Assembly (NCBI GenBank): GCA_963781065.1
Contig: CAWAET010000014.1
Location: forward strand, 41,321 to 105,320
DNA length: 64,000 nt
Reading direction: 5' to 3'
DNA from: Thermoanaerobaculia bacterium
GTDB taxonomy: Bacteria; Acidobacteriota; Thermoanaerobaculia; Multivoradales; JAHEKO01
Shown here in pieces: positions 15,045 to 37,835 of the stretch (the stretch's first letter is position 1; each line of letters opens with the position of its first letter). The translations under genes and the position numbers were made by a program. The notes under the pieces are model-generated. The model made no database searches and was not told where the DNA came from. It worked only from the letters and a program-made list of their open reading frames with translations.

Positions 15045-15048
<4 letters not shown>

Positions 15049-17457: not shown

Positions 17458-17485
17458 CTTGACTTGGGCGTTCCCGGAGGTACGG

Positions 17486-18619: not shown

Positions 18620-18624
18620 TCGCG

Positions 18625-22864: not shown

Positions 22865-23011
22865 TCTAGTGGCCGGCGAGCGGCCGCGCAGCCCGGGGGC
22901 CGGCGCCTTGTCAGCCGCCGACGGCTGTACTAGCATCCAGGAACTTTCTGGCACCGGGGTCGGGACGGGCGCGACGAACCAAGATCAGCCGATGCGCCGG
23001 TCCGGCTGCCG

Positions 23012-24778
23012 GTGGAACAGACTCAGTCGAGGAGGGTCGACGTGTTCGCAAGACAGACTTTTGTGCGCTTGATCTTGGGCTTGGCCGTGTGCCTGGCGGC
23101 GGCGGTGCCGGCGCTGGCGCAGGAGTCCGCCTGGGAGGAGTACATCCGCCGCAACCCCGAGGCGGTGGACGACGACACGCTCGGCCCGCTCGAGCGCAGG
23201 ATCCTGCACGCCTTGACCCCGGACCAGGTGCAGGCCCTGTTCGACGGCGCGGTGGCGGAGGAGATCGTTCTCGACAGCGGCCAGACGCTGGCCGAGTACC
23301 TGCGGGACTCGGTGGGCGGCGGTCCTGGGCTGGTGTACGTGCCGGTGGACCTGTGCCGGCTGTTCGCCACCTCGGCGCAGACGGTGCCGGTGTCCGGCAG
23401 GATGGCGGCGGACGAGATCCGTGCGTACGTCGCCCGCGGCGCCGGGACGGCGCACACCGACCAGGGCGGCATGCCGGCCGGCTGCGGCATCCCGGACGAG
23501 GCGTTGGCGGCCCTGATCCACTTCCGGGTGGTGCCGGACCGGATCCAGGACGCGTTCGGCTTCTTCAAGGCCTGGCGGTCGGACCTGCCGGAACCGTCGA
23601 CCCGCATTCTGGACTACGAGCCGGTGATCGATCCGCCGCTCGCGGATCGGTTCCGATTCAACACCGCCACCGTGGTGGGGCTGTGCGACAGCACTCCCCT
23701 CGAAGCGAGGGCGACGGTCTGCCCGGCCGAGTTCAAGGTCAAGACGGCGCAGCTCGGCGCCCACGTGCGGGGCGACGTGGCGGGCTACTTCCGGCTGGCC
23801 GAACGGGCCGACGTGCCCGAGGCCGGCGACGCCGACACCCTGGACGGTCTGGACTCGACCGACTTCGCGGCGGCGGTGCACACCCACGACGGCGGCGACA
23901 TCACCTCGGGCACGGTGGGCGAGCCCTACATCGACCCGCTGATCGCCCGCGACGACGAGATCGTGCCGACGGTGCTGGCCAACGACGGCAGCGGCTCGGG
24001 CATCGACGCCGATCTGCTGGACGGCCGCGACTCGCTGGATCTGATGCTGCAGGTGGGCAACTGCCTGACCGTTTCCCCGAGCTGCCCGGCGGTTCCGGCC
24101 GACGCTCTTGCGGCGCGCTGCTGGCAGACGATCCAGGCGGCGATCGACGCGGCCGATCCGGTCTGCGCCAGCAACTGCCTGCCGGCCGCGGCCGGCCCCA
24201 CCAACCGCTACGTGGTCAAGGTCGGCCCCGGTGTCTACACCGAGCGAGTCATCATGATTCCCGATGTCGACATCGAGGGGTCGGGACAGAAGGCGACGAC
24301 GATCACGGACGACGGCAGCGTTTCTCCGGGGACCGTGCTCGGCGCCGACGACGCCGAGTTGCGCCACCTCACGGTCGCGAGTACCGGCCCCGCCGCCGGT
24401 GCCAGTATCGCCTTTCACACCATAGGCAAATCGCCGGCGCTGCGTCATGTGACGCTGCGAGCGTCAGGTGGCGCCAACAACCTGGCCCTGGTCAATGCCA
24501 CGGGCTCCGTCGTGTCACTGGTCCACGTCACCGCCAGCGCCGCCGCCGAGACGGTCTTCGACATCGCGGTCGAGAACCAGACCGCGTCGATCGTCATCCG
24601 AGACTCGGTCCTCGAGGGCGACGACAGCGCCGTGTTCAACAACACCGGGGCCACTTCGAGCCTCGTCAACACTCAGCTGCTCGGCCCGGCGAACGAAACC
24701 GGTGGCGGCAACACCATCACCTGTCTCGGCGCCTACGACGGCACCTTCACCGAACTCGACACCAACTGCCAGCCCTGA
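23012..24778 (+). CDS. Secreted tailspike-like protein (shared N-terminal module + DAD(T/L)LDG neck + beta-helix)
   Basis: Signal peptide ending PALA-Q; VYVPVDLCRL..GCGIP module; DADTLDG/DADLLDG; TIQAAID..YVVKVGPGVYTE beta-helix cap. Confidence 0.75.
   Translation: MEQTQSRRVDVFARQTFVRLILGLAVCLAAAVPALAQESAWEEYIRRNPEAVDDDTLGPLERRILHALTPDQVQALFDGAVAEEIVLDSGQTLAEYLRDSVGGGPGLVYVPVDLCRLFATSAQTVPVSGRMAADEIRAYVARGAGTAHTDQGGMPAGCGIPDEALAALIHFRVVPDRIQDAFGFFKAWRSDLPEPSTRILDYEPVIDPPLADRFRFNTATVVGLCDSTPLEARATVCPAEFKVKTAQLGAHVRGDVAGYFRLAERADVPEAGDADTLDGLDSTDFAAAVHTHDGGDITSGTVGEPYIDPLIARDDEIVPTVLANDGSGSGIDADLLDGRDSLDLMLQVGNCLTVSPSCPAVPADALAARCWQTIQAAIDAADPVCASNCLPAAAGPTNRYVVKVGPGVYTERVIMIPDVDIEGSGQKATTITDDGSVSPGTVLGADDAELRHLTVASTGPAAGASIAFHTIGKSPALRHVTLRASGGANNLALVNATGSVVSLVHVTASAAAETVFDIAVENQTASIVIRDSVLEGDDSAVFNNTGATSSLVNTQLLGPANETGGGNTITCLGAYDGTFTELDTNCQP
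23261..23845 (+). repeat. Copy 1 of near-identical intragenic duplication (copy 2 offset +1798)
   Basis: GAGATCGTTCTCGACAGCGGCC... at 23261 and 25059 continue almost identically. Confidence 0.9.
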
Positions 24779-24794
24779 CGCCGGAAGGCCGATC

Positions 24795-27700
24795 ATGAGG
24801 AAGAGCATGAGATCGCGAATCCCGCGGGCGGGCGTCCTGGCCCTCCTGCCCGTCCTGGCGCTCGCCGGGGTGTTGCTGCATGGCTCCGCCGCGGCTACTG
24901 ACGAGGGCGACGGCCGGAAGCCCACCGCCTGGGAGGAGGTCATCCGCCGCGACCCGAGCGCGGTGGACGACGACACGCTCGGCCCGCTCGATCGCAAGGT
25001 CCTGCACGCCGTGACCCCGGGCCAGGCGCAGGCGCTGGCCGAGGGGGCAGCGGCGGCGGAGATCGTTCTCGACAGCGGCCAGACGCTGGCCGAGTACCTG
25101 CGGGACTCGGTGGGCGGCGGTCCTGGGCTGGTGTACGTGCCGGTGGACCTGTGCCGGCTGTTCGCCACCTCGGCGCAGACGGTGCCGGTGTCCGGCAGGA
25201 TGGCGGCGGACGAGATCCGTGCGTACGTCGCCCGCGGCGCCGGGACGGCGCACACCGACCAGGGCGGCATGCCGGCCGGCTGCGGCATCCCGGACGAGGC
25301 GTTGGCGGCCCTGATCCACTTCCGGGTGGTGCCGGACCGGATCCAGGACGCGTTCGGCTTCTTCAAGGCCTGGCGGTCGGACCTGCCGGAGCCGTCGACC
25401 CGCATTCTGGACTACGAGCCGGTGATCGATCCGCCGCTCGCGGATCGGTTCCGGTTCAACACCGCCACCGTGGTGGAGCTGTGCGACAGCACTCCCCTCG
25501 AAGCCAGGGCTGCGGTCTGCGCGGCCGAGTTCAAGGTCAAGACGGCGCAACTCGGCGCCCACGTGCGGGGCGACGTGGCGGGCTACTTCCGGCTGGCCGA
25601 ACGGGCCGACGTACCCGAGGCCGGCGACGCCGACACTCTGGACGGTATGGACTCGACCGCCTTTGCGGCGGCCTCGCACACCCATGACGGCGGCGACATC
25701 GTCTCGGGCACGGTGGGTGAGCCGTACGTCGATTCGTTGATCGCCCGCGACGACGAGATCGTGCCGACGGTGCTGGCCAACGACGGCGCCGGCTCGGGGC
25801 TCGACGCGGATCTGCTCGACGGCAAGCATGCCTCGGCCTTCCGGCCGCGGCCGGCCAACGTGATCCAGGTCCACCCGACCGACGGCGACTTCGCCACCAT
25901 CCAGGGGGCGCTCGACGCCATCGGGGTGGATCCCAGGTTCCCCGCCGCCAGCGTCACCAACCGCTATCTCATTCGCGTCGGCGGCGGCGTCTACAACGAG
26001 CAGGTGACGATGGATCCGTTCGTCGACATCGAGGGCAAGGGCAAGACGGCCACGATCGTCTCCGCCGCATCGCAGCCCGGCCCCGAGGGCACCCTGGAGT
26101 GCGCCGACGACGCCGAGGTGCGCAACCTCACCGTCGAGTCGACCGGCGCCGGCGAGAAGGCGATCGCCATCCGCTGTCTCGGCGCCTCGCCGATGCTGAC
26201 CGACGTCAAGGCGGTCGCCACCGGTGCCACCGGCGGCACGCCCGAGAACATCGGCATCCTCAACGACGGTGCGGCGGCCATGCCGATGCTCACCGGCGTG
26301 CACGTCGACGCCAACCCGTCCCCGGGCCTTGGCGTGGTCAACCTCAACGGCGCCATGCCGACGATCCGCGACTCCGACATCACCGGCGCCGACTCGGCGA
26401 TCGAGAACCGCGACACCGCCACCGCCAAGGTGGCCAACACCGCCCTGGCGGGCGGCGCCGACGTGTTGCCGCCAGCGTTGCAGGCGAGCTACATGTGCGT
26501 CCGCGCCTACGTCGCGGGTACCCTGGCGGCGCTCAACGCCGAGTGCTTCCCCAACACGCCGCCGACGGCGACGGACGACGCCTACGCCACCCTGGGCAAC
26601 ACCCTGCTCGAGGTGACCCTCGACCACGCCGGCGCGGCCTCGCTCGCCAACACCACCGCCAGCCAGCCCTCGGTGATCGGCGAGACCACCACGCCCAAGA
26701 CCTACCGCAGCGTGTTCGAGAACGACACCGACGCCGAGACCGCCGACAAGAACCTGCTCACCGCGGCGGCCGTGGGCGGCACCGTCACCGCCGGCGCGGT
26801 GGTCAACATGTTCGCCGACGGCACCTTCGAGTACGTGCCGCCGGTGGGCGCCACCGGTACCGACACCTTTGACTACACGGTGACCGATCCCGGCGGCCTG
26901 GCGGACACCGGCACGGTGACGATTACGCTCGGCGATCTGATCTGGTACGTCGACAACGACAACGGCGGCACGGCCGACGGCCGATCCACCACGCCCTACA
27001 CCACGCTGGCGCCGATCGACGCCGGCGGCGGCGACGACGGCAAGGACGGCGCCGGCGACACGATCTTCGTCTTCGACGGCACCGGCAACACCGTCGGCGG
27101 CATCCTGCTCGAGGACAACCAGCTCCTCCAGGGGCACGAGATCGCCCTGGCGCCGGCCGGTTTCGAGTATGCCGGCGGCGCCAACCTGGTGGCCGCCTCG
27201 ACCGCGCCGACGATCACCGACGGCGCCGGCGACGTCATCGAGCTGGCCAGCGGCAACACGATCCGTGGGCTGGACATCGCCGCCACCAACGGCCTGGCGA
27301 TCACCGGCAACGGCGTCGCGGGAGCCACCATCGACGAGGTGGGCACCAGCGGCACGGGCACCGGCAATGGCGTGCTCTTCGACGGCGTCACCGGCACCAT
27401 CGCCATGACCGACCTCGACATCAACTCGTCGACCAACTGGGGCATCGCCATCCAGAACTCGAGCGCGACCTTCACCTTCGACGCCGCGAGCTCGATCACC
27501 AACCCGACCGGCGTGGCCTTCAGCGTCACCAACGGCGCGCCGAACGTGACCTACAGCGGCACGATCGCCAACACCTCGATCCAGACGATCGGCGTCAGTA
27601 CCACCACCGGCGGCACCGTGCTGTTCGACGGCGCGAGCATCAACGGCACCCGCATCTACCTGACCAGCGTCGGCGGCGACGTGACGGTGGATGCCGACGC

Positions 27701-30426
27701 GACCACCCTGAGCAACAGCTTCATGTCGGGCATCGAGATCACGAGCGCCTCGACCGGCACCTTCCGGTTTGACGACGTGACGATCTCGACCCCGACCGAC
27801 GAGGGCATCGAGATCAACGGCGGCGCCGGTGACGCCTTTACCGGCGCGGCGGACTTCAACAACGTCGACGTCACCTCCGCCAGCGCCCTGCCGGCGGTTT
27901 CCATCGTCGGGCTCGGCGGTGGCAGCGTCGACTTCGACGCCGCCAGCACCATCACCTCGACCAACGGCGGCATAGGCATCACCAGCAACGCCGGTGGCAC
28001 GATCACCTTCAACGGCTTTGTGGACCTCGACACCGCGGGCCTGGCGGCGGTCAACGCGACCTCCAACACCGGCGCCATGATCAACTTCGCGGGCAACCTC
28101 GACATCGACACCACCAGCGGCACCGGCTTCAACGTCACGGGCGGCGGCACGGTCAACGTGGACTCGTCGACCAGCTCGACCACGGTGGACACCGGCACCG
28201 GCATCGGCGTCAACATCGGCGCCGGCATTGGCGCCACCGGCGTCAGCTTCGACACCGTCAACGTCAACGGCTCCACTGCCGGCATCATCCTCGCCAACAC
28301 CGGCACCGGCACCTTCAACGTCACCACTGGCACGATCCAGAACATCACCGGCGGCGGCGTCGCGGCGGCCGAGTTCGGAGATGTCGACGGCACGGTGAAC
28401 ATCGGCGCCAGCCTGAGCAACAGCGGTGGCCACTCGGTGGTGATCGACTCAGGCTCCGCGGGCACCTTCACCTTCACCGGGCCGATCGACGACAACGCTC
28501 AGGGCATCGACATCTCGATCAACGGCGCCGGTGGCACGTTCACCTTCGCCGGCGGCCTCGACATCGACACCATCGATACGAACACAGGTTTCGACGCCTT
28601 CAGCGGCGGTACGGTCAACGTCTGCAGCGACTCCAACTGCAGCGCGCCCGGTGGCACACCGGTGGTCAACACGGTCGACACGACGGCCGGTACCGGGACG
28701 GCGGTGCTCATCGACTCTGTGACCATCGGCGGCGAGGGGGTCACCTTCCGGTCGATCGACGTCGACGGCAGCGGCACCGCCACCAACCCCGCCATCCGGC
28801 TCGACACCACCGGCGCCGGCGGGTTCACGGTCACCGGCATCGACGGCCCCTGCGGCAAGCCCGGGGATTCCGACTGCGACGGCGGCACGCTGGAGAACAT
28901 CCAGGGCGACGCCATCCACCTCGAGAACACCGACGGCCCGGTGTCGCTCTCCTACATGCTGATCGAGGACATCGGCTCCACGGCCGGCGGCTTCGACGTC
29001 CTGAGCGGCCACGACGCCATCCACGGCGAGAGCGTCGACGGCGGGCTGACCCTGGACAATGTCACCATCCGCCGGATCAGCGACATGGCGGTCAACGGCA
29101 CCCTGTTCTCGCCGGTCGGCCCGATGTTCGACCCGACCACGGTGTGGAACGGCCTCACCATCACCGATAGCCACATAGCCAACACCAACCGGTTCGACCC
29201 GGCGCTGACGTCGGTGGCCGACGACTCCGACGAGGGCGGCGTGCGCATCCTGGGTCTGCGCGGCACGACGCTGCTCGACGGCAACGTCTTCGAGCGCGGC
29301 GGCAACCTGGTGCAGTTCTTCGTCACCAGTGCCACGGGGCCGTTGCTACCGACGACCACGATCACCGTCACCGAGAACGATTTCAAGGAGGCCTACAAGG
29401 AGTTCGCCTCGGGAGGAACGCTGTCGAAGGGGATCACCTGCCTCGACGTCATCGCCCAGGACACCGGCAACGTCGACCTGACGGTCGGCTCGCGCGCCAC
29501 CGCGGTGGTCGGCCACCAGGCGAACGACGACGGCAACCTGTTCCTCAACTGCCACGGCGCCTCGCTGCGCTACGGCAACGACAGCGTCAGCCCCTTCGGG
29601 CTGCCGGCGCACACCGGCAGCGTCAGTCGCCGACGTGGGCAACAACACCTTCCAATCCACCGACCACGACAGCGCCCAGTCGGGCGACTTCGACTTCCCG
29701 CGCGGCTACCTGCTGGCGATCACCCGCGGCACCGATACCGCGACCCTCGACACGCGGATCTCGTACAACCTCTTCGACGAGGTCTCCTTCGAGGGCGGTC
29801 TGGGGCAGCTCAACCTCGACTTCGAGGACGGCATCCACCAGGCGAAGGTCGACTTCAACACCTTCGACTCGCCGGGCCACGCGCCGTGGTTCGTGCGCGG
29901 CGATTCGAGCGCCAGCGCCGAGGTCCTGTTCCGCGACAACAACGGGATCCGGGGCGCGTTCTGCTCGGGCGACCCGAGCGCCGCCGGCGGCGGGTGCGAT
30001 CTGGGCGCTGGCAATCTGTGCACGCCCACGGCGGAGAACCCCGCGGCCGAGGGCTACTGCGGCCCCGGCGAGTCCGCCACCGCCTCGGTGCAGAACGGGG
30101 CCGACCTCGACATGGGGATCATCGACGACACGTTCGCCCTCGAGGACGCCTTCTACACGATCGGCGAGACCGTGCGGATCCGCACCGTCAACACCGGCGG
30201 CGCCGGCACCATCTGCGCCTACCTCGAGGACAACACCTCGCCCAACGGCTACGGGCTGGAGGAGGACAACGGCACGCTGGAGCTGGAGCAGGGCGGCTCG
30301 GCTTCGACCGACCCGGCGACGGTGCTGGGTGACAACAACAACACCGGCACGCCGAAGAACATCTTCGGTGGCGTGACCGTCACCGCCGGCACCTGCACTC
30401 GTCCCTCCGGGGCGATCTTCAACTGA
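24795..30426 (+). CDS. Giant (about 1870 aa) secreted adhesin-like protein: shared N-module, beta-helix, Ig-like domain, long G/T/N-rich beta-solenoid; apparent frameshift near 29628
   Basis: Signal peptide; PTATDDAY..ENDTD..DGTFEY.P..GTDTFDYTVTD Ig-like motif; IWYVDN..DGRSTTPY; same composition continues in ORF 29635-30426. Confidence 0.8.
25059..25643 (+). repeat. Copy 2 of near-identical intragenic duplication
   Basis: Matches 23261-23845. Confidence 0.9.
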
Positions 30427-30438
30427 CGCGGCCGGGGA

Positions 30439-31995
30439 GTGGCGCCGAAAGGACGGCGAGGGCGGCCGGGTGGCTCCTGGCGTGCGCCCTGGCCTGGGTG
30501 CTGGTGGCCGCGGCTGGCGCTGGCGAGGAGCCGGCGTCGCCGGCCACCAGCCGCCCCGGGGCCTTCCCCGGCTACACGCTGTTCGCGCCGCTGCAGTCGA
30601 CGACCGCCTACCTGGTCGACATGGACGGGCTGGTGGTCCACGAGTGGCGCGGCCGGCGCAACCCGGGCAGCGGCGTCTACCTGACGCCGGCCGGCACCCT
30701 GCTGCGCCCGGTGCGCCGCACCGGCTCGACGGTCTTCCAGAGCGCCGGCACCGGCGGCCGCATCGAGGAGGTCGACTGGGACGGCAGCCTGCTCTGGCAG
30801 TTCGACTGGGCCGGCGTCGACTACGTCCAGCACCACGACATCGAGCCGCTGCCCAACGGCAACCTGCTGCTGCTGGCCTGGGAGCGCAAGAGCCGGGCCG
30901 AGGCGCTGGCCGCCGGCCGCGATCCGCGGACGGTCGGCGAGGAGGGGCTGTGGGTCGACTACCTGGTCGAGATCGAGCCGCGCCGACCGCAGGGCGGCCG
31001 GGTGGTCTGGGAGTGGCACGTCTGGGACCACCTGGTCCAGGATCGCGATCCCGCGCTGCCGGGGCACGGCTCGCCGCGCGAGCACCCCGGGCGGATCGAC
31101 GTCAACGCCGGCGCCCGCCCCGAGCCGGCCGATCCCGCCGCGCTCGACGCCGAGGTCGACCGGCTGCGCGCGCTCGGCTACCTCGGCGGCCGGCGCGACG
31201 GGCGGGGCCGCGCCCGGCGCCGGCTGCTCGCCGACTGGACGCACGCCAACGCGGTCGACTACAACCCGGAGCTCGACCAGATCCTGCTGACGGTGCGCGC
31301 ACCTGGACGAGATCTGGGTGATCGATCACGCCACGACGACAGCCGAGGCGGCCGGCTCCGAGGGCGGCCGGCGCGGCCGCGGCGGCGAGCTGCTCTACCG
31401 CTGGGGCAACCCGGCGGCCTGGGGCGCCGGCGGCGCCGCCGATCGCCGGCTCTTCGCTCCCCACGACGCTCGCTGGATCCCGCCCGGGCAGCCCGGGCGC
31501 GGGCAACATCCTGCTGTTCAACAACGGCCAGGGGCGGCCCGGCGGACAGCGCTCCTCGGTCGACGAGATCCGGCCGCCACTGCCGCCGGCGGCGGCTACC
31601 GCCGGCCGGTGGGCGAGCCGTTCGGGCCGGCGGCGCCGGTCTGGATCCACCGCGAGCCGCGCTTCTTCTCGGCCCGGCTGTCGGGCGCCCAGCGGCTGCC
31701 CAACGGCAACACCCTGATCTGCGCCGGCGAGCAGGGGCGGATCTTCGAGGTGACGCCCGGCGGCGAGATCGTCTGGGAGTACTCGAGCCCGTTCGGCCAC
31801 GACGGCCACCAGCTGGCGCGCAAGCCGTCCCTGCGCGAGCCGCTGGCCGGCCCGGCCGGCATCGGCGCCAGGGGTTCCGAGCCGTCACAGTTCGGCTACT
31901 CGCTGTTCCGCGCCACCCGGCTGCCGGTGGGCTATCCGGGGCTCGCCGGGCTCACGGTCGAGCGCCCGCCGGCGCGGCCGGAGATCGGGCCTTGA
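30439..31995 (+). CDS. Arylsulfotransferase (ASST)-like beta-propeller protein; start uncertain, frameshifts near 31302, 31500, 31577
   Basis: GYTLFAP..YLVDMDG.VVHEW, QHHDIEPLPNGN, VVWEWHVWDHL, DWTHANAVDYN, LLYRWGNP, PHDARWI, SGAQRLPNGNTLIC. Confidence 0.8.
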
Positions 31996-32151
31996 CCTTG
32001 GGCCTTGACCTTGGCCTCTCCTTGGTGTGAGATAGCGCTTCCACCGAGAGAGCCAGCGCGTGCCGCGGATCGAGAGGGCGGGAGGGCGGTCTTGGGAATC
32101 GAAACAGGTCCGCGGCCTGGACGCAGACCGGAGAACAGGAGGGAGACGTAG

Positions 32152-32682
32152 ATGTCGGAACCGTTTCTTGCGGAAGTGCGGATCGTCGGGTTCAACTTCG
32201 CGCCCCGGGGTTGGGCGTTTTGCGACGGCCAGATCCTGCCGATCAACCAGAACCAGTCGCTCTACTCGCTGCTTGGCACCACCTACGGCGGCGACGGGCG
32301 CACCAGCTTCGCGCTGCCGGATTTGAGAGGCCGCACGCCGATCCACCTCGGCGCAAGCAACGGCGGCGCCGACCACCTGCTGGGCCAGAAGGGCGGCGAG
32401 GAGGGCCACACCCTCTCCGAGGCCGAGATGCCCATCCACAACCACACGATGCGGGCCGTCAGCGACACCGCCGACACCGGCCAGGTGACCGGCGCCTTCT
32501 ACGCCGGCTCACCGGGCGGTACCGCGGTCTACACGGCGCAGAACCCCTCGACGCTCAACAATCCGTTCAACAGCGCCAACGTCCTGCCGGCCGGCGGCGG
32601 CCAGGCCCACAACAACATGCAGCCGACGCTGGCCCTCAACTTCTGCATCGCGCTCCAGGGCCTGTTCCCGTCGCGCAACTAG
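32152..32682 (+). CDS. Phage tail-collar domain (Mdp-like) protein 1
   Basis: MSEPFLAEVRI..FNFAPRGWAFCDGQ.LPINQNQSLYSLLGTTYGGDG..FALPDLRGR...HNNMQP.LALNFCIALQG.FPSR. Confidence 0.92.
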   Translation: MSEPFLAEVRIVGFNFAPRGWAFCDGQILPINQNQSLYSLLGTTYGGDGRTSFALPDLRGRTPIHLGASNGGADHLLGQKGGEEGHTLSEAEMPIHNHTMRAVSDTADTGQVTGAFYAGSPGGTAVYTAQNPSTLNNPFNSANVLPAGGGQAHNNMQPTLALNFCIALQGLFPSRN

Positions 32683-32700
32683 GCGAGGAGAGAAAGAGCC

Positions 32701-33222
32701 ATGTCGGAACCTTTTGTCGGAGAGATCCGGATGTTCGCGGGCAACTTCGCCCCTCGCGGCTGGGCCTTTTGCGATGGCCAGCTGTTGGCAGTCTCACAGA
32801 ACGACGCCCTTTTCTCGCTGCTGGGCACGATCTACGGCGGCGACGGCCGCACCACCTTCGGCCTGCCGGACTTGCGCGGCAGGGTCCCGATCCATGCCGG
32901 TGACGGCCCGGGGTTGAGTTCTCGCCGGCTGGGCGCCAAGTTCGGCACCGAGAACGAGACCCTGACGGTCAACCAGTTGTCGAGCCATACGCACAACCCG
33001 TGGGGCGCCACCGACGGCACGCCGGCGAACACCTCGCCGCTGAACGCGGCCCTGGCCAAGCCGACGCCCAACATCTTCGCGACGACCCGCAACAGCACCG
33101 CGAGCATGAACGCCGACACGATCACCAAGGTCGGCGGCTCGCGGAGCCACACCAACCTCATGCCGTTTCTCTGTATCCACTTCATCATCGCCCTGTTCGG
33201 CATCTACCCGTCGCGGCACTAG
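32701..33222 (+). CDS. Phage tail-collar domain (Mdp-like) protein 2
   Basis: MSEPFVGEIRMFAGNFAPRGWAFCDGQ..LFSLLGTIYGGDG..LPDLRGRVP...H.NLMPFL...FIIALFGIYPSR. Confidence 0.92.
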   Translation: MSEPFVGEIRMFAGNFAPRGWAFCDGQLLAVSQNDALFSLLGTIYGGDGRTTFGLPDLRGRVPIHAGDGPGLSSRRLGAKFGTENETLTVNQLSSHTHNPWGATDGTPANTSPLNAALAKPTPNIFATTRNSTASMNADTITKVGGSRSHTNLMPFLCIHFIIALFGIYPSRH

Positions 33223-33233
33223 GAGGCGAGACC

Positions 33234-33758
33234 ATGTCAGAACCTTTTACAGCTGAGATCCGCATCTTCGCCGGTAACTTCGCTCCCCGCGGCTGGGCGT
33301 TCTGCAACGGGCAGCTGTTGCCGGTGGCGCAGAACACCGCGCTGTTCTCGCTCATCGGCACGACCTATGGCGGCGACGGCCGGACTACCACCGCGCTGCC
33401 CAACCTGCAGGGCCGTGCCGCGATGCATCCCGGCCGCGGCCCCGGCCTGACCTCGCGCCGGCTGGGGCAAAGGGGCGGCGTCGAGATGGTCACCCTGAGC
33501 GAGGCGCAGATGCCGAACCACTCGCACACCGTGCAGGCCTCGAACGACCAGGCCAACACCAACGACCCGAGCAACAACAACCCCTCGCGCAGCGCCGGCC
33601 GCGGCGCCAACCGCTACAAGGCCTCGGGCACCCAGGTGGACATGGCGTCGAGGAGCCTCGTGTCCTCGGGCGACAGCCAGCCGCACGACAACATGCAGCC
33701 GTTCCTGGCGATCAACTTCATCATCGCGCTGGTGGGGCTGTACCCGAGCCGCAGCTGA
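33234..33758 (+). CDS. Phage tail-collar domain (Mdp-like) protein 3
   Basis: GGAGG RBS; MSEPFTAEIRIFAGNFAPRGWAFCNGQ...LPNLQGR...HDNMQPFLAINFIIALVGLYPSR. Confidence 0.92.
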   Translation: MSEPFTAEIRIFAGNFAPRGWAFCNGQLLPVAQNTALFSLIGTTYGGDGRTTTALPNLQGRAAMHPGRGPGLTSRRLGQRGGVEMVTLSEAQMPNHSHTVQASNDQANTNDPSNNNPSRSAGRGANRYKASGTQVDMASRSLVSSGDSQPHDNMQPFLAINFIIALVGLYPSRS

Positions 33759-33846
33759 GGCGAGGCCGAGATGAGCCGCGCCGCGGTCCCGCCCCCGGTG
33801 CGTTGGGGGGCGAGACCGTCGCCGCGGCCTCTTGGGGAACGGAGCC

Positions 33847-34461
33847 ATGACACCTGCCGCGCAGAGCTACTTCCGCTCCGACGTGCCTCCCGGCGTGTCG
33901 GGCGACTGGCGCGTGCGCCGTTTCGAGCTCACCGGCCAGCCGCCGGCCGACACGGCCTCCATCTCGCCGCTCGATGTCGAGCCGCCGGGCGAGTACACCG
34001 CGCTCGAGCGCGGCGACGAGATCTTCATGACCGATCTCTACAACGAGTGGTGGACGCAGCGACTGGCCATCGACAGGGCCTGTCAGCGGGGCGGCCGGGT
34101 CTTGGTCACCGGTCTGGGCCTCGGTCTGGTGGCCGAAGGGATGTTGCGCACCCCGGGCAGCCGGGTGGAGGCCGTCACCGTGGTCGAGGCATCGGCCGAC
34201 GTCATCCGGCTGGTGAGCGATCATCTGCTCGGCCGGCTCGGCGGCCGGCTCGAGATCGTGCATGCCGACGCCTTCGACTGGAGCCCACCGGCGGACAGCC
34301 GATACTCGATCGGCTGGCACGACATCTGGCCCAACCCCCAGGTGCCCGAGGCGATGCAGCAGGCCGAGCAGCTGGAGCGGCGGTACGCGCCCTTCTGCGA
34401 CTGGCAGGGCTCCTGGCCGCGCGAGTACCTCGCTGCCCTCGACCGCGCGGCGTCTAGATAA
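33847..34461 (+). CDS. Class I SAM-dependent methyltransferase (spermidine-synthase-like fold)
   Basis: RVLVTGLGLG motif I, VTVVE..ADV, IVHADAF, WHDIWP. Confidence 0.75.
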   Translation: MTPAAQSYFRSDVPPGVSGDWRVRRFELTGQPPADTASISPLDVEPPGEYTALERGDEIFMTDLYNEWWTQRLAIDRACQRGGRVLVTGLGLGLVAEGMLRTPGSRVEAVTVVEASADVIRLVSDHLLGRLGGRLEIVHADAFDWSPPADSRYSIGWHDIWPNPQVPEAMQQAEQLERRYAPFCDWQGSWPREYLAALDRAASR

Positions 34462-34526
34462 CCGATGCTACTGTCCGGCTCGTCCGAGCCGCAGAAAAAA
34501 CCAAGGAAGAGCCAAGGAGAAGATAG

Positions 34527-35096
34527 ATGCTCCCAGCAAAGATGGTCAGCGCCAGTCTCGCCTTCGTCGAAGGCAAGCACACCCAACCGCCCAACGTCGT
34601 CCTGGTGCCGTCGGGCGTCAGGACCTTCCCGGTCACCGTCGAGTGGTCGATGCAGTCGGAGGAGAGCTACATCATCGGCTCTCACGAGCCCACGGACGCA
34701 CATCGCTGGTGCGTCCTCGACGCCGATCTCAAGCAGGTGATGCGGGGCGCCGTCACGGGGCGGCATGGCACCAAGAAGGCCGAGCCCCTGACCAGCCGCA
34801 CGCTGCACGGTGGCGGTGCGCACAACCCACGCACGGATACGTTCGAGTTCGCCGGCGGCAAGCTCAAGAACGGCGGCACCTACATCCTGATCGCCAGCCG
34901 CCACGGAGTCCTCGCGGCGGGCGAGTTCGTAGCGGTGAAACAGCCCGGGGCGAAAGCGGCGGCCAAGAAGAAGGCGGTTCGCAAGGCCAAGGCCGCGCCC
35001 AAGGCCAAGGCGGCGCCCAAGGCCAAGGCGGCGCCCAAGGCCAAGGCCGCGCCCAAGGCCAAGCGGCGGGCAGCCCCGAAGAAGTCGGCGGCCTAG
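34527..35096 (+). CDS. Hypothetical protein with histone-H1-like Lys/Ala/Pro tail
   Basis: AAGGAG RBS; C-terminal KAKAAP x4. Confidence 0.7.
   Translation: MLPAKMVSASLAFVEGKHTQPPNVVLVPSGVRTFPVTVEWSMQSEESYIIGSHEPTDAHRWCVLDADLKQVMRGAVTGRHGTKKAEPLTSRTLHGGGAHNPRTDTFEFAGGKLKNGGTYILIASRHGVLAAGEFVAVKQPGAKAAAKKKAVRKAKAAPKAKAAPKAKAAPKAKAAPKAKRRAAPKKSAA
34983..35063 (+). repeat. 18-bp coding tandem repeat (4.5 copies)
   Basis: AAGGCCAAGGCSGCGCCC. Confidence 0.9.
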
Positions 35097-35117
35097 GCCC
35101 TCCGAAGTCCGCGATTC

Positions 35118-35155
35118 GGCAGCCCGCGCGCCCCGGGGCCGCGGGCTGTCTTTTT
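35118..35155 (+). terminator. Rho-independent terminator
   Basis: GGCAGCCCGCG...CGCGGGCTGTC followed by TTTTT. Confidence 0.75.
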
Positions 35156-35179
35156 GTCCATCGCCGCCGGGAGGAGGCC

Positions 35180-35662
35180 ATGCCGGAGCAGATCAGCTTG
35201 CGACCCATCGAGGAGGGGGACCGCCCCTTCCTCTTTCGCCTCTACGCCTCGACCCGGGCGGAGGAGTTGGCGGTCGTCGACTGGACCGACGAGGAGAAGG
35301 AGCACTTCCTCGACTTCCAGTTTGGCGCCCAGCACGACTACTACCAGGAGCAGTTTGCGAGCGCCCGCTTCGATCTCGTGCTGGTGGACGGCGAGCCTGC
35401 CGGCCGGCTGTACGTCGATCGCCGCGACGACGAGATCCGGCTGATCGACATCGCCCTGCTGCCCGAGCTGCGCCGCCGCGGCATCGGCGGCCGGCTGATG
35501 GACCAGGTCCTGGCCGAGGGACGAGAGGCGGGACTGCCGGTCCAGATCCACGTCGAGCACAACAACCCGGCGATGCGGCTCTACGACCGCCTCGGCTTCG
35601 AGCGGGTGGAGGAGCAGGGGGTCTACTGGCTGATGCGCTGGCAGCCGGAGGCTGAGGTCTAG
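35180..35662 (+). CDS. GNAT family N-acetyltransferase
   Basis: GGAGGAGG RBS; LYASTR.EEL..W...FL..QF.AQH.YY, GRLYV, IDIALLP..R.RGIG, NPA.RLY.RLGF. Confidence 0.92.
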   Translation: MPEQISLRPIEEGDRPFLFRLYASTRAEELAVVDWTDEEKEHFLDFQFGAQHDYYQEQFASARFDLVLVDGEPAGRLYVDRRDDEIRLIDIALLPELRRRGIGGRLMDQVLAEGREAGLPVQIHVEHNNPAMRLYDRLGFERVEEQGVYWLMRWQPEAEV

Positions 35663-35970
35663 GTGAAGACGGCCTCGAACAGGCTGCCCTCGGCGTTGCT
35701 GTCGAGCTGCACCAGGAAGACCGCCAACTCGCCGGTCTCGGGGTGGCGCAGGGTGCGAATCGACTGCTCCAGCAGCATCTCGGCGGGGCCGCGGAAGACC
35801 AGCGAGAACGGCAGCCGCTTGCCCAGCTCGGCGGCCTGTTTGGCCGACAGCTCGCCGACCGGGCCCGCCTCCCGAAGCTCGAGCTGCACCGGCTCGGCCT
35901 GCTCGAGAAGCAGGTCGAAGCTCTGGCCGACCAGCGGCTCGAATCGCGACAGCTCCAACGCGTCCAGCAT
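35659..35970 (-). CDS. DUF6916-like protein
   Basis: F...VGQ.F...L.L...PFSLVFRGP...L.Q....L.HP..G.L.VFLV......FEAVF; this family is typically found beside collar-protein trios. Confidence 0.75.
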   Translation of the reverse strand: MLDALELSRFEPLVGQSFDLLLEQAEPVQLELREAGPVGELSAKQAAELGKRLPFSLVFRGPAEMLLEQSIRTLRHPETGELAVFLVQLDSNAEGSLFEAVFT

Positions 35971-36116
35971 CGCCGAACAATAGCATCTGGTGGTCGGCGG
36001 GGCGCCGGGCGGCCGACCCCGCGGACCGGGCTCGGCTGCCGCTGGCTTGGCAATTGCAGCCGGAAGTTGCGACAATGATCGAGCGGCGCTGGCTGCCGCC
36101 GTCGATCCCCTCTCTG

Positions 36117-37835
36117 ATGACCGCAAGACTGACCTTGGCAGCTGTGCTCCTGGCCGCGGCCCCGTCCCTCGCCGAGGACGCGGCCGACCTGGTTCTGCGC
36201 AACGGCCGCTTCTACCCGGTATCCGTTCCCTGGTCGATCGAGGGCAGCCTGGCGGTGCGCGGCGGCCGGATCGCCTACCTCGGGCCCGACGCCGGCGCCG
36301 CCGGGATGATCGGCGCCGACACCGAGGTCGTGGAGTTGGCCGGCCGGGCGGTGACGCCCGGCCTGATCGACGCCCACTCGCACCTCGTGAGCCTGGGCCG
36401 GGCGCTGTCGGAGGTCGATCTGGTGGGCACCGCCTCCTACGCCGAGGTGATCGAGCGGGTGCGGGCGCGGGCGCGGCAGCTGCCGCCGGGAAGCTGGGTC
36501 CGGGGCCGTGGCTGGGACCAGAACGACTGGCCGGTCCAGGAGTTTCCGACCCACCAGCCGCTGAGCGCCGCGGTGCCCGATCACCCGGTCTGGATGCGTC
36601 GCGTCGACGGCCACGCGGCGCTGCTCAACGAGCGGGCGATGCGCTTGCTGGGCCTCGAGGAATCGATCGCGGACCCGCCGGGCGGACGGTTTCTGCGCGG
36701 CGCCGATGGCGAGCTCACCGGCGTCCTGATCGACGCCGCGATGACCGTCGCTCACGCCCGGGGGCTGGCCGGAGGCGCCGCTCCGGCGACCGGCGGCTCG
36801 GCCGCTGCGGCGGTCATCGACCAGGCGACACCGGAAGAGGTCGCAAGCTGGATCCTGACCGGCGCGGAGCACTGTCTGGAGCGCGGCCTGACGACGGTCA
36901 CCGACATGGGGATCGACCAGACCGAGTACCAGGCCTACGCCCGGCTGCGCGGCGCCGGTGGGCTGCCGCTGCGGGCGGCGCTGTTCCTCTCCGACGAGCC
37001 GGCGCTGCTCGAAGACTGGTTCGCGCGCGGGCCCGAGATCGACCCCGAGGCGCGGCTCACGGTGCGCGGGGTCAAGCTCTACTCGGATGGCGCCCTCGGC
37101 AGCCGCGGCGCGGCGCTGATCGAGGAGTACAGCGACGATCCGGGCAACCTGGGCCTGCTGCGCACCGGCTCCGGCCACGTCCAAGACGTCTGCCGCCGGG
37201 CGCTCGAGACCGGCTTCCAGGTCGGCATCCACGCTATCGGCGACCGCGGCAACCTGGTCAGCCTCGACGGCATCGAGCGCTGCTTTGGCGAGCCCCGGCC
37301 CGAGGCGCGGTTCCGCATCGAGCACGCCCAGGTGATGCGGCTGGGCGACATCGAGCGCATGGCCCGGCTGGGGGTGATCGCCTCGATGCAGCCGACCCAC
37401 GCCACCTCCGACATGCCCTGGGCCGAGGACCGCGTGGGTCCGGTCCGGATCCGCGGCGCCTACGCCTGGCGCCGGGTGCTCGAGGCCGGCGGCTCGCTGG
37501 CGCTGGGCAGCGACTTCCCGGTCGAGCGCGTCGATCCGCTGTTGGGACTGTACGCGGCGGTGACCCGGCAGGACCTGGAGGGCGACCCGGCGGGCGGCTG
37601 GCAGCCGGATCAGCGGCTCGACCGCGCCGAGGCGCTGCGCGGCTTCACCCTCGACGCCGCCCGCTCGCTCTTCCTGGAGGAAGAGGTCGGCTCGCTCGAG
37701 GTCGGCAAGCGGGCCGACTTGACGGTCTTCGCCCGCGACCCGATGACGGTGCCGGCAGCCGAGATCCCGGCGGTCGAGATCGATCTGACCCTGGTCGACG
37801 GCGAGGTGGTCTATCGCCGCGAGGAGACGCCATGA
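36117..37835 (+). CDS. Secreted YtcJ-like amidohydrolase
   Basis: PGLIDAHSH, GRGWDQNDW, RVDGHA, DGALGSRGA, HAIGDRGN, RIEHAQ, SMQPTHATSD, GSDFPVE; start could be 36075. Confidence 0.9.
   Translation: MTARLTLAAVLLAAAPSLAEDAADLVLRNGRFYPVSVPWSIEGSLAVRGGRIAYLGPDAGAAGMIGADTEVVELAGRAVTPGLIDAHSHLVSLGRALSEVDLVGTASYAEVIERVRARARQLPPGSWVRGRGWDQNDWPVQEFPTHQPLSAAVPDHPVWMRRVDGHAALLNERAMRLLGLEESIADPPGGRFLRGADGELTGVLIDAAMTVAHARGLAGGAAPATGGSAAAAVIDQATPEEVASWILTGAEHCLERGLTTVTDMGIDQTEYQAYARLRGAGGLPLRAALFLSDEPALLEDWFARGPEIDPEARLTVRGVKLYSDGALGSRGAALIEEYSDDPGNLGLLRTGSGHVQDVCRRALETGFQVGIHAIGDRGNLVSLDGIERCFGEPRPEARFRIEHAQVMRLGDIERMARLGVIASMQPTHATSDMPWAEDRVGPVRIRGAYAWRRVLEAGGSLALGSDFPVERVDPLLGLYAAVTRQDLEGDPAGGWQPDQRLDRAEALRGFTLDAARSLFLEEEVGSLEVGKRADLTVFARDPMTVPAAEIPAVEIDLTLVDGEVVYRREETP

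What the first reader, a model, noticed from the sequence alone, without database searches (positions are those of the whole stretch)
23012..35970. Candidate uncharacterised phage-tail-derived surface-fibre system: tailspike-like adhesins + collar-protein trio + modifying enzymes + GNAT + DUF6916
Seen: a compact, mostly co-directional 13-kb block between housekeeping genes. It holds two signal-peptide beta-helix proteins with tail-fibre-like necks, an ASST-like protein, three paralogous tail-collar proteins, a SAM methyltransferase, a basic-tailed protein, a GNAT and a DUF6916-like gene, with no capsid, sheath, tube, baseplate, terminase or integrase. Established: collar-trio + GNAT + DUF6916 cassettes (annotated microcystin-dependent proteins) recur next to large surface proteins in many bacteria and, to my knowledge, have no defined function. 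Inference: domesticated phage tail parts build a cell-surface or secreted fibre, with a collar heterotrimer as tip or adaptor, DUF6916 as chaperone, and acyl/sulfo/methyl transferases modifying components.
Basis: partly seen in the sequence, partly recalled or inferred. Interest (0 to 1): 0.85.

Follow-up and report, generated by a model that had tools for sequence, protein, structure and literature searches.

The report
Cellular three-collar fibre-tip gene cassette
This bacterial chromosome carries a widespread but unstudied gene set in which three different copies of a phage tail-fibre tip travel with a giant secreted protein, an acetyltransferase and a small unknown protein, while the other enzymes in the block are local add-ons.

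Summary
Only part of the block is a conserved unit: giant Sec-signal beta-helix/Big_9 protein B, three collar paralogs in fixed order, a GNAT and DUF6916.

- I fetched 50 loci through the GNAT alone, each with at least 6 kb on both sides. Of these, 45 hold three or more collars, 41 in order 1-2-3, 37 hold DUF6916 and 39 a B-like giant protein.
- The record titles span at least ten phyla. No phage genes lie nearby, and the GNAT has no relative in viral contigs.
- ASST (0/80), the A/B N-terminal domain (0/80), the methyltransferase-like p209 (4/80) and the basic-tailed p189 (4/80) are local additions.
- The breaks in B and in the ASST-like gene are probably assembly indels, because uvrA in the same window is broken the same way.
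- Natural single-chain proteins with exactly three collar units exist. They carry signal peptides and PEP-CTERM or adhesin domains. Together with a published virophage heterotrimer, they argue that Col1-3 form one mixed trimer used outside the cell.
- The split collars have no export signal, and no binding was shown.

This scan found the same cassette before in at least 8 other genomes. The function is untested. I rate it a new variant of a known kind, interest 0.6.

The parts
23012..24778 (+). A: 588-aa secreted protein with four parts: signal peptide, N-terminal beta-sandwich domain, about 70-aa fibre-repeat neck with HxH, and a pectin-methylesterase-like right-handed beta-helix. It is a local paralog of the first third of B, not a conserved cassette member.
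   Evidence: GC3 0.91. 69% identical to B over residues 37-588. Only about 9 full-length homologs, 49-63% identical. The model has pLDDT 70, with the beta-helix part at 80-94. Foldseek PDB best hits are pectin methylesterases at E 1.6e-5. 74 viral beta-helix tail proteins match at E<=0.001. 0 of 80 cassette loci hold it.
24795..30426 (+). B: giant exported protein, about 1877 aa if read through. It has an A-like N-terminal third, a Big_9 domain (aa 626-711), a long Thr/Gly/Asn-rich beta-helix region and a 267-aa C-terminal 'tail' domain. There is an apparent 1-base frameshift near 29625. This is the cassette's giant surface protein.
   Evidence: ORF 24468-30332 with the GC3 frame switching at about 29550 to the frame of 29635-30426. 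Big_9 scores 5e-8. The middle and C-terminal parts hit giant ORFs beside the trio in 12 of 20 and 39 of 50 loci. In L016 the homologous tail is in frame within one 3291-aa ORF. Contigs of related strains lack one base at 29625/29627.
30450..31995 (+). ASST-like (arylsulfotransferase-family beta-propeller) gene with a hydrophobic N-terminus. It is read in four frame pieces, with breaks near 31285, 31497 and 31580. It is a local insert between B and Col1.
   Evidence: PF05935 scores 1.1e-11 and PF14269 0.0016. Three-frame translation. DNA context. One related contig lacks a base at 31495. 0 of 20 and 0 of 80 cassette loci have it.
32152..32682 (+). Col1: leaderless collar-plus-head protein, 176 aa, first positional paralog.
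   Evidence: PF07484 scores 1.3e-28. It best-matches the first gene of the trio in relatives. HxH is invariant in 35 of 35 sequences. Strong GGAGG-type site upstream.
32701..33222 (+). Col2: leaderless collar-plus-head protein, 173 aa, second positional paralog.
   Evidence: PF07484 scores 1.2e-30. A profile of 35 orthologs hits cyanophage A-1(L) fibre 8kec at 3.6e-10 and T4 gp12 1ocy at 7.6e-6. HxH is invariant.
33234..33758 (+). Col3: leaderless collar-plus-head protein, 174 aa, third positional paralog.
   Evidence: PF07484 scores 8.5e-28. HxH is invariant. Positional clade in the tree.
33847..34461 (+). p209: methyltransferase-fold-like protein (204 aa from the ATG; the ORF starts at a TTG at 33832). 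An occasional accessory gene.
   Evidence: PHROG 15480 scores 5.3e-30. No Pfam hit and no PDB sequence hit. 289 homologs, mostly unnamed, two called spermidine synthase. Found in 4 of 80 cassette loci, the same 4 that have a B-tail-like domain.
34527..35096 (+). p189: small protein with a Lys/Ala/Pro-rich basic tail built from 18-nt repeats. It belongs to a rare lineage-specific family and is an occasional accessory gene next to the GNAT.
   Evidence: No Pfam, NCBIfam, PHROG or PADLOC hit. 18 representatives among 1.84 billion proteins. Found in 4 of 80 loci. No relation to DUF6916 (hhalign probability 0.4%).
35180..35662 (+). Cassette GNAT, 160 aa, leaderless. Its nearest solved relatives are N-terminal protein acetyltransferases.
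   Evidence: PF00583 scores 5.6e-15. 51-69% identical across 17 loci. 251 relatives in genome contigs. Profile hits: 6wqb 'N-terminal acetyltransferase' 5e-12, Naa50 and RimI at 1e-6 to 1e-7. rimI is the best NCBIfam hit, 1.9e-9, below its cut-off.
35659..35970 (-). DUF6916 protein, 103 aa, leaderless, convergent with the GNAT.
   Evidence: PF21880 scores 1e-23. It is the only copy in this genome. Present in 24 of 41 related genomes. Next to the GNAT in 37 of 50 loci.

Best explanation
The conserved unit is six genes: B, Col1, Col2, Col3, GNAT and DUF6916. It is a cellular, non-phage cassette, inherited at this chromosomal site within the family and also shared across phyla.

Proposed working:
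- Inferred: Col1, Col2 and Col3 fold together 1:1:1 into one mixed trimer of about 56 kDa. It is built like the receptor-binding tip of a phage tail fibre (collar plus head), and three HxH pairs around the axis hold a metal ion.
- Inferred: the trimer is a carbohydrate- or surface-binding head that works with the giant Sec-exported beta-helix/Big_9 protein B, in adhesion or recognition outside the cell.
- Inferred: the GNAT is a protein N-alpha-acetyltransferase. It caps the three conserved N-termini (M-[S/A]-[E/Q/D]-P-[F/Y]) that meet where a fibre shaft would normally join.
- Guess: DUF6916 is a cytoplasmic assembly or hand-over factor.

Shown here: the gene content, the fixed order, the co-occurrence and the absence of phage context.

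A, the ASST-like gene, p209 and p189 are lineage-specific neighbours or accessories, not core parts.
For: Co-occurrence, sampled from DUF6916:
- PF21880 is present in 24 of 41 related genomes.
- Of 20 regions fetched around it, 15 hold Col1-Col2-Col3 in that order, 17 hold the GNAT and 12 a B-like giant ORF.

Co-occurrence, sampled from the GNAT (a set that overlaps the first):
- 251 relatives were found and 80 loci kept. 50 of these have at least 6 kb on both sides.
- Of the 50, 45 hold three or more collars, 41 in order 1-2-3, 37 hold DUF6916 and 39 a B-like protein.
- In 36 of the 45 the trio is co-directional with and upstream of the GNAT.
- Record titles span Acidobacteriota, Gammaproteobacteria, Planctomycetota, Chloroflexota, Bacteroidia, Rhodothermales, Calditrichia, Cyanobacteria, Trueperaceae, Gemmatimonadetes and others.

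One unit, not three genes:
- Col1, Col2 and Col3 each form one cluster across 35 loci (SH-aLRT 86, 86, 74; quick tree), and the same sub-groups recur in all three.
- Mean column identity is 63-70% across phyla.

Fusion evidence:
- 1555 longer homologs of Col2 were found.
- 10 of 10 scanned hold exactly three Collar domains in one chain. 3 have PEP-CTERM above cut-off, 2 have dockerin, and 3 sit inside Big_9/Cadherin/HYR giant proteins.
- 98 of 120 have a hydrophobic N-terminus.
- One of them (P0034) folds as a single compact body, pLDDT 90.9 and pTM 0.86.
- Its only PDB matches at Z>=2 among 48,161 chains are T4 gp12, T4 gp37 tip and cyanophage A-1(L) fibre, with Z 2.3-3.9.

Precedent: three consecutive collar proteins of virophage DSLV2 co-purify as a heterotrimer of about 55 kDa and bind Synechococcus cells (passages read in PMC12724248).

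Metal site: HxH is invariant in all 3 x 35 sequences. It aligns with LPSHQH of the A-1(L) fibre.

GNAT: its best solved relatives are N-terminal acetyltransferases.

Not phage:
- No phage genes in the block or the scanned flanks.
- The GNAT has no relative in viral contigs.
- Col2 is at most 38% identical, among the 15 listed rows of 455 phage records.
- The same rSAM/PmbA flank occurs in L017, L032, L055, L070 and L102.
Against: - Every split collar, GNAT and DUF6916 lacks an export signal (0 of 105, 0 of 18 and 0 of 35), while B has a Sec signal. How the trimer would reach B is unexplained.
- A Tat-signal neighbour exists only in a sub-lineage: 6 of 20 relatives' loci and 6 of 80 loci. It is absent here.
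- 11 of 50 loci show no B-like protein with my queries.
- 5 of 50 have the GNAT without a trio, and two of these (L042, L058) still have DUF6916. L032/L044 keeps p189-like, GNAT and DUF6916 without collars. So the GNAT-DUF6916 pair can outlive the collars.
- The fused three-collar proteins lack the head insert, are circularly permuted, and mostly fall outside the Col1/2/3 clusters. They are relatives, not fusions of this trio.
- The EPF start is also kept between units of the fused proteins, so its conservation may be structural rather than an acetylation signal.
- No binding, heterotrimer or localisation was shown for these proteins.
Confidence: 0.5

Rival explanations
1. The leaderless part (Col1-3, GNAT, DUF6916) works inside the cell. 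It could be a cytoplasmic glycan- or protein-binding trimer with its own modifying enzyme, or it could be released only on lysis. The giant exported protein is then a co-inherited neighbour, not a physical partner.
For: 0 of 105 split collars, 0 of 18 GNATs and 0 of 35 DUF6916 proteins have a hydrophobic N-terminal segment. The GNAT and DUF6916 persist without collars or a giant protein in L032/L044, L042 and L058. 11 of 50 loci lack a detectable B-like protein.
Against: Relatives of the fold that carry three collars in one chain are exported: 98 of 120 have a hydrophobic N-terminus, and PEP-CTERM, dockerin or adhesin domains are present. A B-like giant protein sits beside the trio in 39 of 50 loci, usually directly upstream and co-directional. 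Every characterised relative (gp12, gp37, A-1(L) fibre, DSLV2 proteins) binds cell-surface glycans from outside (for DSLV2; the rest is established knowledge, recalled).
Confidence: 0.22
2. One reading: the whole 13-kb block is one surface-fibre system. A, B, ASST, the collar trio, the methyltransferase, the basic-tailed protein, GNAT and DUF6916 all belong to it, and the sulfo-, methyl- and acyl-transferases modify the fibre.
For: All the genes are adjacent and, apart from DUF6916, co-directional, with short gaps. p209 co-occurs with the B-tail-like domain in 4 of 4 loci that have either. A p189-like gene lies next to the GNAT in 4 of 80 loci, and another basic-tailed protein in 5 of 80. The A-family and p209-family homologs P0005 and P0152 both list a 90005-base contig. 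I did not follow that up.
Against: ASST is found in 0 of 80 and 0 of 20 cassette loci. The A/B N-terminal domain is found in 0 of 80. That domain occurs in 11 of 101 related genomes. Where the cassette position is known (G040, G029) it lies elsewhere, and G004 and G018 have it without DUF6916. p209 belongs to a family of 289 proteins, far commoner than its 4 of 80 presence in cassettes.
Confidence: 0.1
3. The block is a decayed prophage or tailocin remnant, and the frame breaks are signs of decay.
For: The collars hit phage tail families in PHROGs, down to 1e-26. The A model resembles viral beta-helix tail proteins, E down to 1e-9. B and the ASST-like gene have frame breaks.
Against: No capsid, sheath, tube, baseplate, terminase or integrase hit in the block or the scanned flanks. 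The same six genes in the same order occur in dozens of genomes of many phyla, with 63-70% identical collars. The same chromosomal flank is kept in relatives. The GNAT has no relative in 2.9 million viral contigs. The frame breaks are matched by at least 3 breaks in uvrA, and related strains read through at two of the sites.
Confidence: 0.03

Closest known systems
Tripartite tail proteins of virophage DSLV2 (Aquatic Virophage 1 lineage; J Virol 2025, PMC12724248; passages read)
   Same: Three consecutive genes of about 170-200 aa, each a PF07484 collar plus a head. Position-specific clades. In that work they co-purify as one heterotrimer of about 55 kDa that binds cyanobacterial cells and is modelled on LPS.
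   Different: There the trimer is a virion part beside capsid genes. Here there is no virus. The trio travels with a GNAT, DUF6916 and a giant exported protein. Heterotrimer formation is not shown for these proteins.
Receptor-binding tips of phage fibres: T4 gp12 (1ocy, 5iv5), T4 gp37 tip (2xgf), cyanophage A-1(L) fibre (8kec)
   Same: Sequence-profile homology of the collar region (8kec 3.6e-10, 1ocy 7.6e-6). An HxH motif at the equivalent place. These are the only structural matches of the three-collar model.
   Different: Phage tips are homotrimers at the end of a long shaft in the same chain and are attached to a baseplate. Col1-3 start at the collar, have no shaft, are three different chains and are chromosomal.
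Natural single-chain three-collar proteins with signal peptide and PEP-CTERM, dockerin or adhesin domains (unstudied)
   Same: About 50% identical collar units, exactly three per protein. Some are embedded in Big_9/Cadherin giant proteins like B.
   Different: One chain, circularly permuted, the head insert missing, exported by their own signal peptide. Whether they have a GNAT or DUF6916 beside them was not examined.
Phage tailspikes and CE8 pectin-methylesterase-like beta-helix proteins (for A and the first third of B)
   Same: Layout of N-terminal domain, fibrous neck and right-handed beta-helix. Foldseek hits to pectin methylesterases (E 1.6e-5) and to viral tail fibre or spike models (E 1e-9).
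   Different: No PHROG or Pfam family hit. Signal peptide present. The N-terminal domain is a small bacterial family. Trimer state and any enzyme activity are untested.
R- and F-type tailocins (domesticated phage tails)
   Same: Phage tail-derived parts kept on a bacterial chromosome for the cell's own use.
   Different: Tailocins keep sheath, tube, baseplate and lysis genes. None is present here. Only the fibre tip is kept.

Membership tests
Pfam PF07484 Collar (phage tail collar domain) | Match above the gathering score | tested here: met
   99.1, 105.6 and 96.5 bits against a cut-off of 24 for Col1-3
gp12/gp37-type fibre tip | HxH metal-binding motif after the collar | tested here: met
   H96 and H98 are invariant in 35 of 35 sequences of each paralog. 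The motif aligns with LPSHQH of 8kec. Metal binding itself was not tested.
gp12/gp37-type fibre tip | N-terminal shaft in the same chain that joins the tip to a baseplate or fibre | tested here: not met
   Col1-3 begin 6-7 residues before the collar domain. The alignments start at M1 in all loci.
gp12/gp37-type fibre tip | Trimeric assembly | not testable with these tools
   Only indirect evidence: three-collar single-chain relatives fold as one body. The one complex job scored another partner and gave no verdict.
DSLV2-type tripartite tail proteins | Three consecutive collar genes forming position-specific clades | tested here: met
   Order 1-2-3 in 15 of 20 and 41 of 50 loci. Each position forms one cluster in the quick tree.
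DSLV2-type tripartite tail proteins | Part of a virion, next to capsid genes | tested here: not met
   No capsid or other virion gene in the block or the scanned flanks. The GNAT is absent from viral contigs.
Recurrent cellular three-collar cassette (this scan's earlier notes; no published name) | Giant exported protein, Col1-2-3 in fixed order, GNAT and DUF6916, without phage genes | tested here: met
   All six are present here, and they co-occur in relatives.
Prophage or tailocin | Sheath, tube, baseplate, capsid, terminase, integrase or lysis genes nearby | tested here: not met
   PHROG scan of 10 block proteins. Pfam scan of 16 flanking genes. The window beyond about 15.7-46.3 kb was not scanned.
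Pfam PF05935 Arylsulfotransferase (ASST) | Family match over an intact protein | tested here: inconclusive
   The N part scores 44.9 bits against a cut-off of 24.2. The C part matches PF14269 below its cut-off. The frame is broken three times in this assembly. Catalytic residues were not examined.
GNAT (PF00583); N-terminal acetyltransferase subgroup | GNAT fold match; N-alpha-acetyltransferase specificity | tested here: inconclusive
   The fold is met (56.1 bits against 20.7). The best solved relatives are N-terminal acetyltransferases, but rimI scores 37.8 against a cut-off of 86.4. The substrate is unknown.
Pfam PF21880 DUF6916 | Match above the gathering score | tested here: met
   83.7 bits against 27.
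Class I SAM methyltransferase (p209) | Recognised methyltransferase family match and a SAM-binding motif | tested here: inconclusive
   No Pfam hit at E<=0.01. PHROG 15480 'methyltransferase' scores 5.3e-30. An aminopropyltransferase model scores 19.6 bits against 472. A G-rich loop VTGLGLG is seen in the sequence.
Phage tailspike (A, B) | Phage tail-spike family membership | tested here: not met
   No PHROG hit at E<=0.001 for A or B. Only the fold is alike.
Known anti-phage defence systems (PADLOC) | Match of any block protein to a defence-system model | tested here: not met
   0 hits for 9 of 10 proteins. p209 alone has a weak methyltransferase-like hit (mad2, 3e-5, 21 bits).

The most novel reading that the evidence does not exclude
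Bacteria of many phyla own a 'cellular tail-fibre tip'. Three leaderless paralogs are assembled in the cytoplasm into a metal-stapled heterotrimer. A dedicated N-terminal acetyltransferase caps it and DUF6916 handles it. It is then exported already folded by a route not yet known, and docks on a giant beta-helix exoprotein as its recognition head. This would be a new kind of adhesion or recognition organelle derived from phage receptor-binding proteins, with its own maturation pathway, spread by horizontal transfer.
Probability: 0.25. Interest if true: 0.8.

Novelty: new variant of a known kind. Interest (0 to 1): 0.6.

Why it matters
If the reading holds, a receptor-binding module known from phage and virophage particles has been taken over by cells of at least ten phyla as a stand-alone three-chain binding head.

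Its collar proteins are 63-70% identical across phyla (mean column identity, 35 loci). It keeps a private acetyltransferase and a domain of unknown function.

That would give DUF6916 and a large share of the 'microcystin-dependent protein' annotations a first functional context. It would add a class of bacterial surface lectins or adhesins. It would also pose a clear export puzzle: leaderless subunits beside a Sec-exported partner.

The cassette occurs in cultured strains named in the record titles: Sulfidibacter corallicola M133, Novipirellula rosea JCM 17759 and Rhodopirellula maiorica SM1. So the question can be tested at the bench.

For this window the practical result is narrower. Only six of the eleven genes belong to the conserved unit, and the apparent pseudogenes are probably assembly errors.

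Tried and rejected
- Complex prediction of Col1, Col2, Col3 and DUF6916, with DUF6916 as the scored partner. Verdict 'no answer': score 0.35, but a control with chain 1 replaced scored 0.52. It is no evidence either way. The heterotrimer itself was not scored.
- Foldseek of the three-collar model against the PDB: no match at E<=0.001. The gp12 and A-1(L) rows there are weak.
- ESM Atlas for DUF6916: only DUF6916 clusters, nothing beyond Pfam.
- Single-sequence PDB search with Col1: only spurious ankyrin-repeat hits on a short GRTPIHL motif.
- Is p189 or the Tat-signal neighbour of other loci a DUF6916 paralog? hhalign probabilities are 0.4% and 0.5%, so not detectable. Seven accessory proteins from relatives' loci have no Pfam family.
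- Tat hitch-hiking as the general export route: the Tat-signal protein family is found in 6 of 80 loci only and not here.
- Search for fused three-collar genes among 101 relatives, as a control for GNAT/DUF6916 linkage: only split units were found, so the control could not be made.
- RNA evidence: no RNA holder listed.
- Read laying covered only parts of the stretch with short contigs of related strains. The breaks near 31285 and 31580 were not bridged by an informative contig.
- The careful tree search did not finish in 300 s. The quick tree is reported.
- Pseudogene reading of the ASST-like gene and B: dropped after the uvrA control.
- Literature: 'DUF6916' gave 0 papers. 'phage tail collar domain' or 'microcystin-dependent protein' gave 23 papers, none on the bacterial cassette by title or abstract. 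Passages of PMC3174227 and PMC5579227 only mention paralog selection and metaproteome detection. 'COG4675', 'MdpB' and 'tail-collar' gave nothing relevant in the 25 listed. Supplementary files were not opened.

Full report
**What is in the sequence**

The window has about 72% G+C, so I picked genes by third-position G+C and frame plots and then translated them. Between a radical-SAM MiaB-like gene (21563-22954, minus) and an amidohydrolase gene (36054-37835, plus) lie eleven genes.

- A, 23012-24778.
- B, 24795-30426.
- An ASST-like gene, about 30450-31995.
- Col1, Col2 and Col3, at 32152-32682, 32701-33222 and 33234-33758.
- p209, 33847-34461.
- p189, 34527-35096.
- A GNAT, 35180-35662.
- A DUF6916 gene on the minus strand, 35659-35970.

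Pfam confirms Collar three times (1e-28 to 1e-30), Big_9 in B, ASST, GNAT and DUF6916. p209 has no Pfam hit but matches a PHROG 'methyltransferase' family at 5e-30. p189 matches nothing. There are three corrections: the DUF6916 strand, the weak basis for 'SAM methyltransferase', and the broken frames described next.

**Broken frames are probably assembly errors**

B changes frame near 29625, and the ASST-like gene runs through frames 0, 1, 2, 1 within 400 bases. I first read this as decay. Then I found that uvrA at 12103-15048 is also read in at least three or four frames. Its pieces match UvrA profile positions 19-96, 103-648 and 686-942.

In a relative (L016) the domain homologous to the B tail is in frame within one 3291-aa ORF. 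Short contigs of related strains from two runs of two studies lack one base at 29625 or 29627. One contig lacks a base at 31495. I therefore treat B and the ASST-like gene as probably intact in the organism. I cannot prove it, because two of the ASST breaks were not covered.

**What recurs and what does not**

I sampled related loci in two ways. The two sets overlap and are not independent.

From DUF6916:
- PF21880 occurs in 24 of 41 related genomes. This count includes the window's own genome and one unpublished genome, G003.
- Of 20 regions fetched around it, 15 have three collars that best-match Col1, Col2 and Col3 in that order.
- 17 have the GNAT and 12 have a large ORF homologous to the middle or C-terminal part of B.

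From the GNAT:
- An alignment of 18 cassette GNATs, 51-69% identical, found 251 relatives in the species-representative genome collection. 80 loci were returned.
- 50 of the 80 have at least 6 kb on each side.
- Of those 50, 45 hold three or more collars, 41 in order 1-2-3, 37 DUF6916 and 39 a B-like protein.
- In 36 of the 45 the trio lies upstream of and co-directional with the GNAT.
- The record titles cover Acidobacteriota (the closest, up to 79% identity, so the window's organism is probably an acidobacterium), Gammaproteobacteria, Planctomycetota, Chloroflexota, Bacteroidia, Rhodothermales, Calditrichia, Cyanobacteria, Trueperaceae, Gemmatimonadetes and others.

The other genes do not recur.
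- The ASST-like gene and the A/B N-terminal domain were found in none of the 80 loci and none of the 20.
- p209 was found in 4 of 80, always together with a B-tail-like domain.
- p189 was found in 4 of 80.

Several relatives keep the cassette at the same rSAM/PmbA flank (L017, L055, L070, L102). One (L032/L044) keeps only a p189-like gene, the GNAT and DUF6916 there.

**A and B**

- A is 69% identical to the first 545 residues of B. At the DNA level, about 450 bases are 98-100% identical, which suggests recent gene conversion.
- A belongs to a small family of about nine full-length proteins.
- Its model (pLDDT 70) has three parts: an N-terminal beta-sandwich, a neck that is disordered in the monomer, and a confident right-handed beta-helix. 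The helix resembles pectin methylesterases (E 1.6e-5) and viral tail fibre or spike models (E down to 1e-9; 74 hits at E<=0.001).
- The neck is a repeat of about 59 aa with a conserved HxH. Otherwise unrelated beta-helix proteins share it at 58-72% identity, some with several tandem copies.
- The N-terminal domain occurs in 11 of 101 related genomes. It is not next to the cassette where both positions are known, and it also occurs in genomes without DUF6916.
- So B is a local chimera: an A-type front end joined to the cassette-type giant protein. A is a neighbour by duplication. 'Tailspike-like' holds for the fold and layout, but not for family membership (no PHROG hit).

**The collar trio**

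- Each collar starts six or seven residues before the collar domain and has no shaft and no signal peptide.
- Profiles of 35 orthologs each are 63-70% identical on average across phyla, with HxH invariant.
- By profile they are homologous to the cyanophage A-1(L) fibre (3.6e-10) and to T4 gp12 (7.6e-6).
- In a quick maximum-likelihood tree each position forms one cluster (support 86, 86, 74), and the same sub-groups recur in all three. The triplication is therefore old, and the three genes are inherited as a set.
- Phage homologs are much more distant: at most 38% identity among the 15 listed rows of 455 phage records.

**Evidence that three collars make one body and act outside the cell**

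- A search for longer homologs of Col2 found 1555 proteins.
- All 10 that I scanned have exactly three Collar domains in one chain. They carry PEP-CTERM (3 above cut-off), dockerin (2), or sit inside Big_9/Cadherin/HYR giant proteins (3).
- 98 of the 120 listed have a hydrophobic N-terminal segment, against 0 of 105 split collars.
- In 16 of 16 parsed proteins the arrangement is circularly permuted. The C-terminal strand segment comes first, and the head insert is missing.
- One of them, P0034, folds as a single compact body (pLDDT 90.9, pTM 0.86).
- Among 48,161 PDB chains its only matches at Z>=2 are gp12, the gp37 tip and the A-1(L) fibre, at low Z (2.3-3.9).
- The published virophage DSLV2 case shows three consecutive collar proteins co-purifying as a heterotrimer of about 55 kDa that binds Synechococcus cells (passages of PMC12724248).
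- Together these make a Col1-Col2-Col3 heterotrimer likely. I put it at about 0.75. I did not test it directly.

**GNAT and DUF6916**

- The GNAT's best solved relatives by profile are N-terminal acetyltransferases: 6wqb at 5e-12, and Naa50 and RimI at 1e-6 to 1e-7. All collars begin M-[S/A]-[E/Q/D]-P-[F/Y].
- I propose that the GNAT caps the three N-termini that would meet at the base of the trimer. This is inference only, because the EPF motif is also kept inside the fused proteins.
- DUF6916 is a leaderless protein of about 100 aa with a conserved LFLVPxGPD...YEAVFT end. Its role is a guess.
- Two loci keep the GNAT and DUF6916 without collars.

**The main difficulty**

B has a Sec signal, but the collars, the GNAT and DUF6916 have none. 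A Tat-signal protein lies between Col3 and the GNAT in a sub-lineage only. It is not a detectable DUF6916 relative and is absent here. How a cytoplasmic trimer would meet an exported giant protein is unexplained. That keeps an intracellular role alive as a rival.

**Not a prophage, not a known defence system**

- No phage structural, packaging or integration genes lie in the block or in the scanned flanks.
- There is no tRNA or repeat boundary.
- No PADLOC model matches beyond a weak methyltransferase-like hit.
- The cassette GNAT is absent from viral contigs.

**Novelty**

I found no paper on the bacterial cassette. This scan has noted the same cassette in at least 8 other genomes. Those notes gave leads: the virophage paper, Tat and PEP-CTERM partners. 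They are not evidence. My own tallies agree with them on recurrence and fixed order.

The thing is a cellular variant of a known kind of module, the phage or virophage fibre tip, with unstudied companions.

**Verdict**

- Observation: confirmed.
- Interest: 0.6.

Noticed in passing
window 12103-15048: uvrA is read in at least three or four different frames. The pieces match UvrA profile positions 19-96, 103-648 and 686-942. A housekeeping gene broken like this points to indel errors in the assembly.
   Followed up: yes
window 23252-23700 and 25050-25500: About 450 bases of A and B are 98-100% identical, while the rest of the two genes is 60-70% identical. This suggests recent gene conversion between the paralogs, or an assembly effect in a metagenome bin.
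   Followed up: partly
window 15724-20199: A sigma-54 activator with a GAF domain is followed by a partner-switching set: an HATPase_c_2 kinase, a STAS protein and a GAF-SpoIIE phosphatase. It lies just upstream of the PmbA and rSAM genes that flank the block.
   Followed up: no
proteins P0031-P0150: Single-chain three-collar proteins are circularly permuted: the C-terminal strand segment comes first and the head insert is missing. Many end in PEP-CTERM. They form a large exported sister group of the split trio.
   Followed up: partly
L080 3462-7251 and L097 1929-5873: Two loci titled Lysobacterales carry two complete Col1-2-3 trios, one on each side of the cassette GNAT.
   Followed up: no
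L032 (same as L044) 4167-5432; L038; L042; L058: The GNAT and DUF6916 persist without any collar or giant gene. In L032/L044 they do so with a p189-like gene, at the same rSAM/amidohydrolase site as in the window.
   Followed up: partly
L021-L025, L029 (between Col3 and GNAT): A 250-300-aa protein with a twin-arginine signal and no Pfam family sits inside the cassette of one sub-lineage. It is found in 6 of 80 GNAT loci and is not detectably related to DUF6916.
   Followed up: partly
L023 14820-15700: A tandem DNA repeat of roughly 63 bases, about seven copies, open on both strands, lies between Col3 and DUF6916.
   Followed up: no
proteins P0010, P0011, P0015, P0017 and P0019 against A residues 263-331: The neck of A and B is a repeat module of about 59 aa with HxH. 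Unrelated beta-helix proteins share it at 58-72% identity, and P0010 has up to five or six tandem copies. One carrier (P0015) has a Peptidase_S74 domain.
   Followed up: partly
proteins P0005 and P0152: An A-family homolog (52% identical) and a p209 homolog (72% identical) both list a longest contig of 90005 bases. The two genes may therefore be linked in another organism as well.
   Followed up: no
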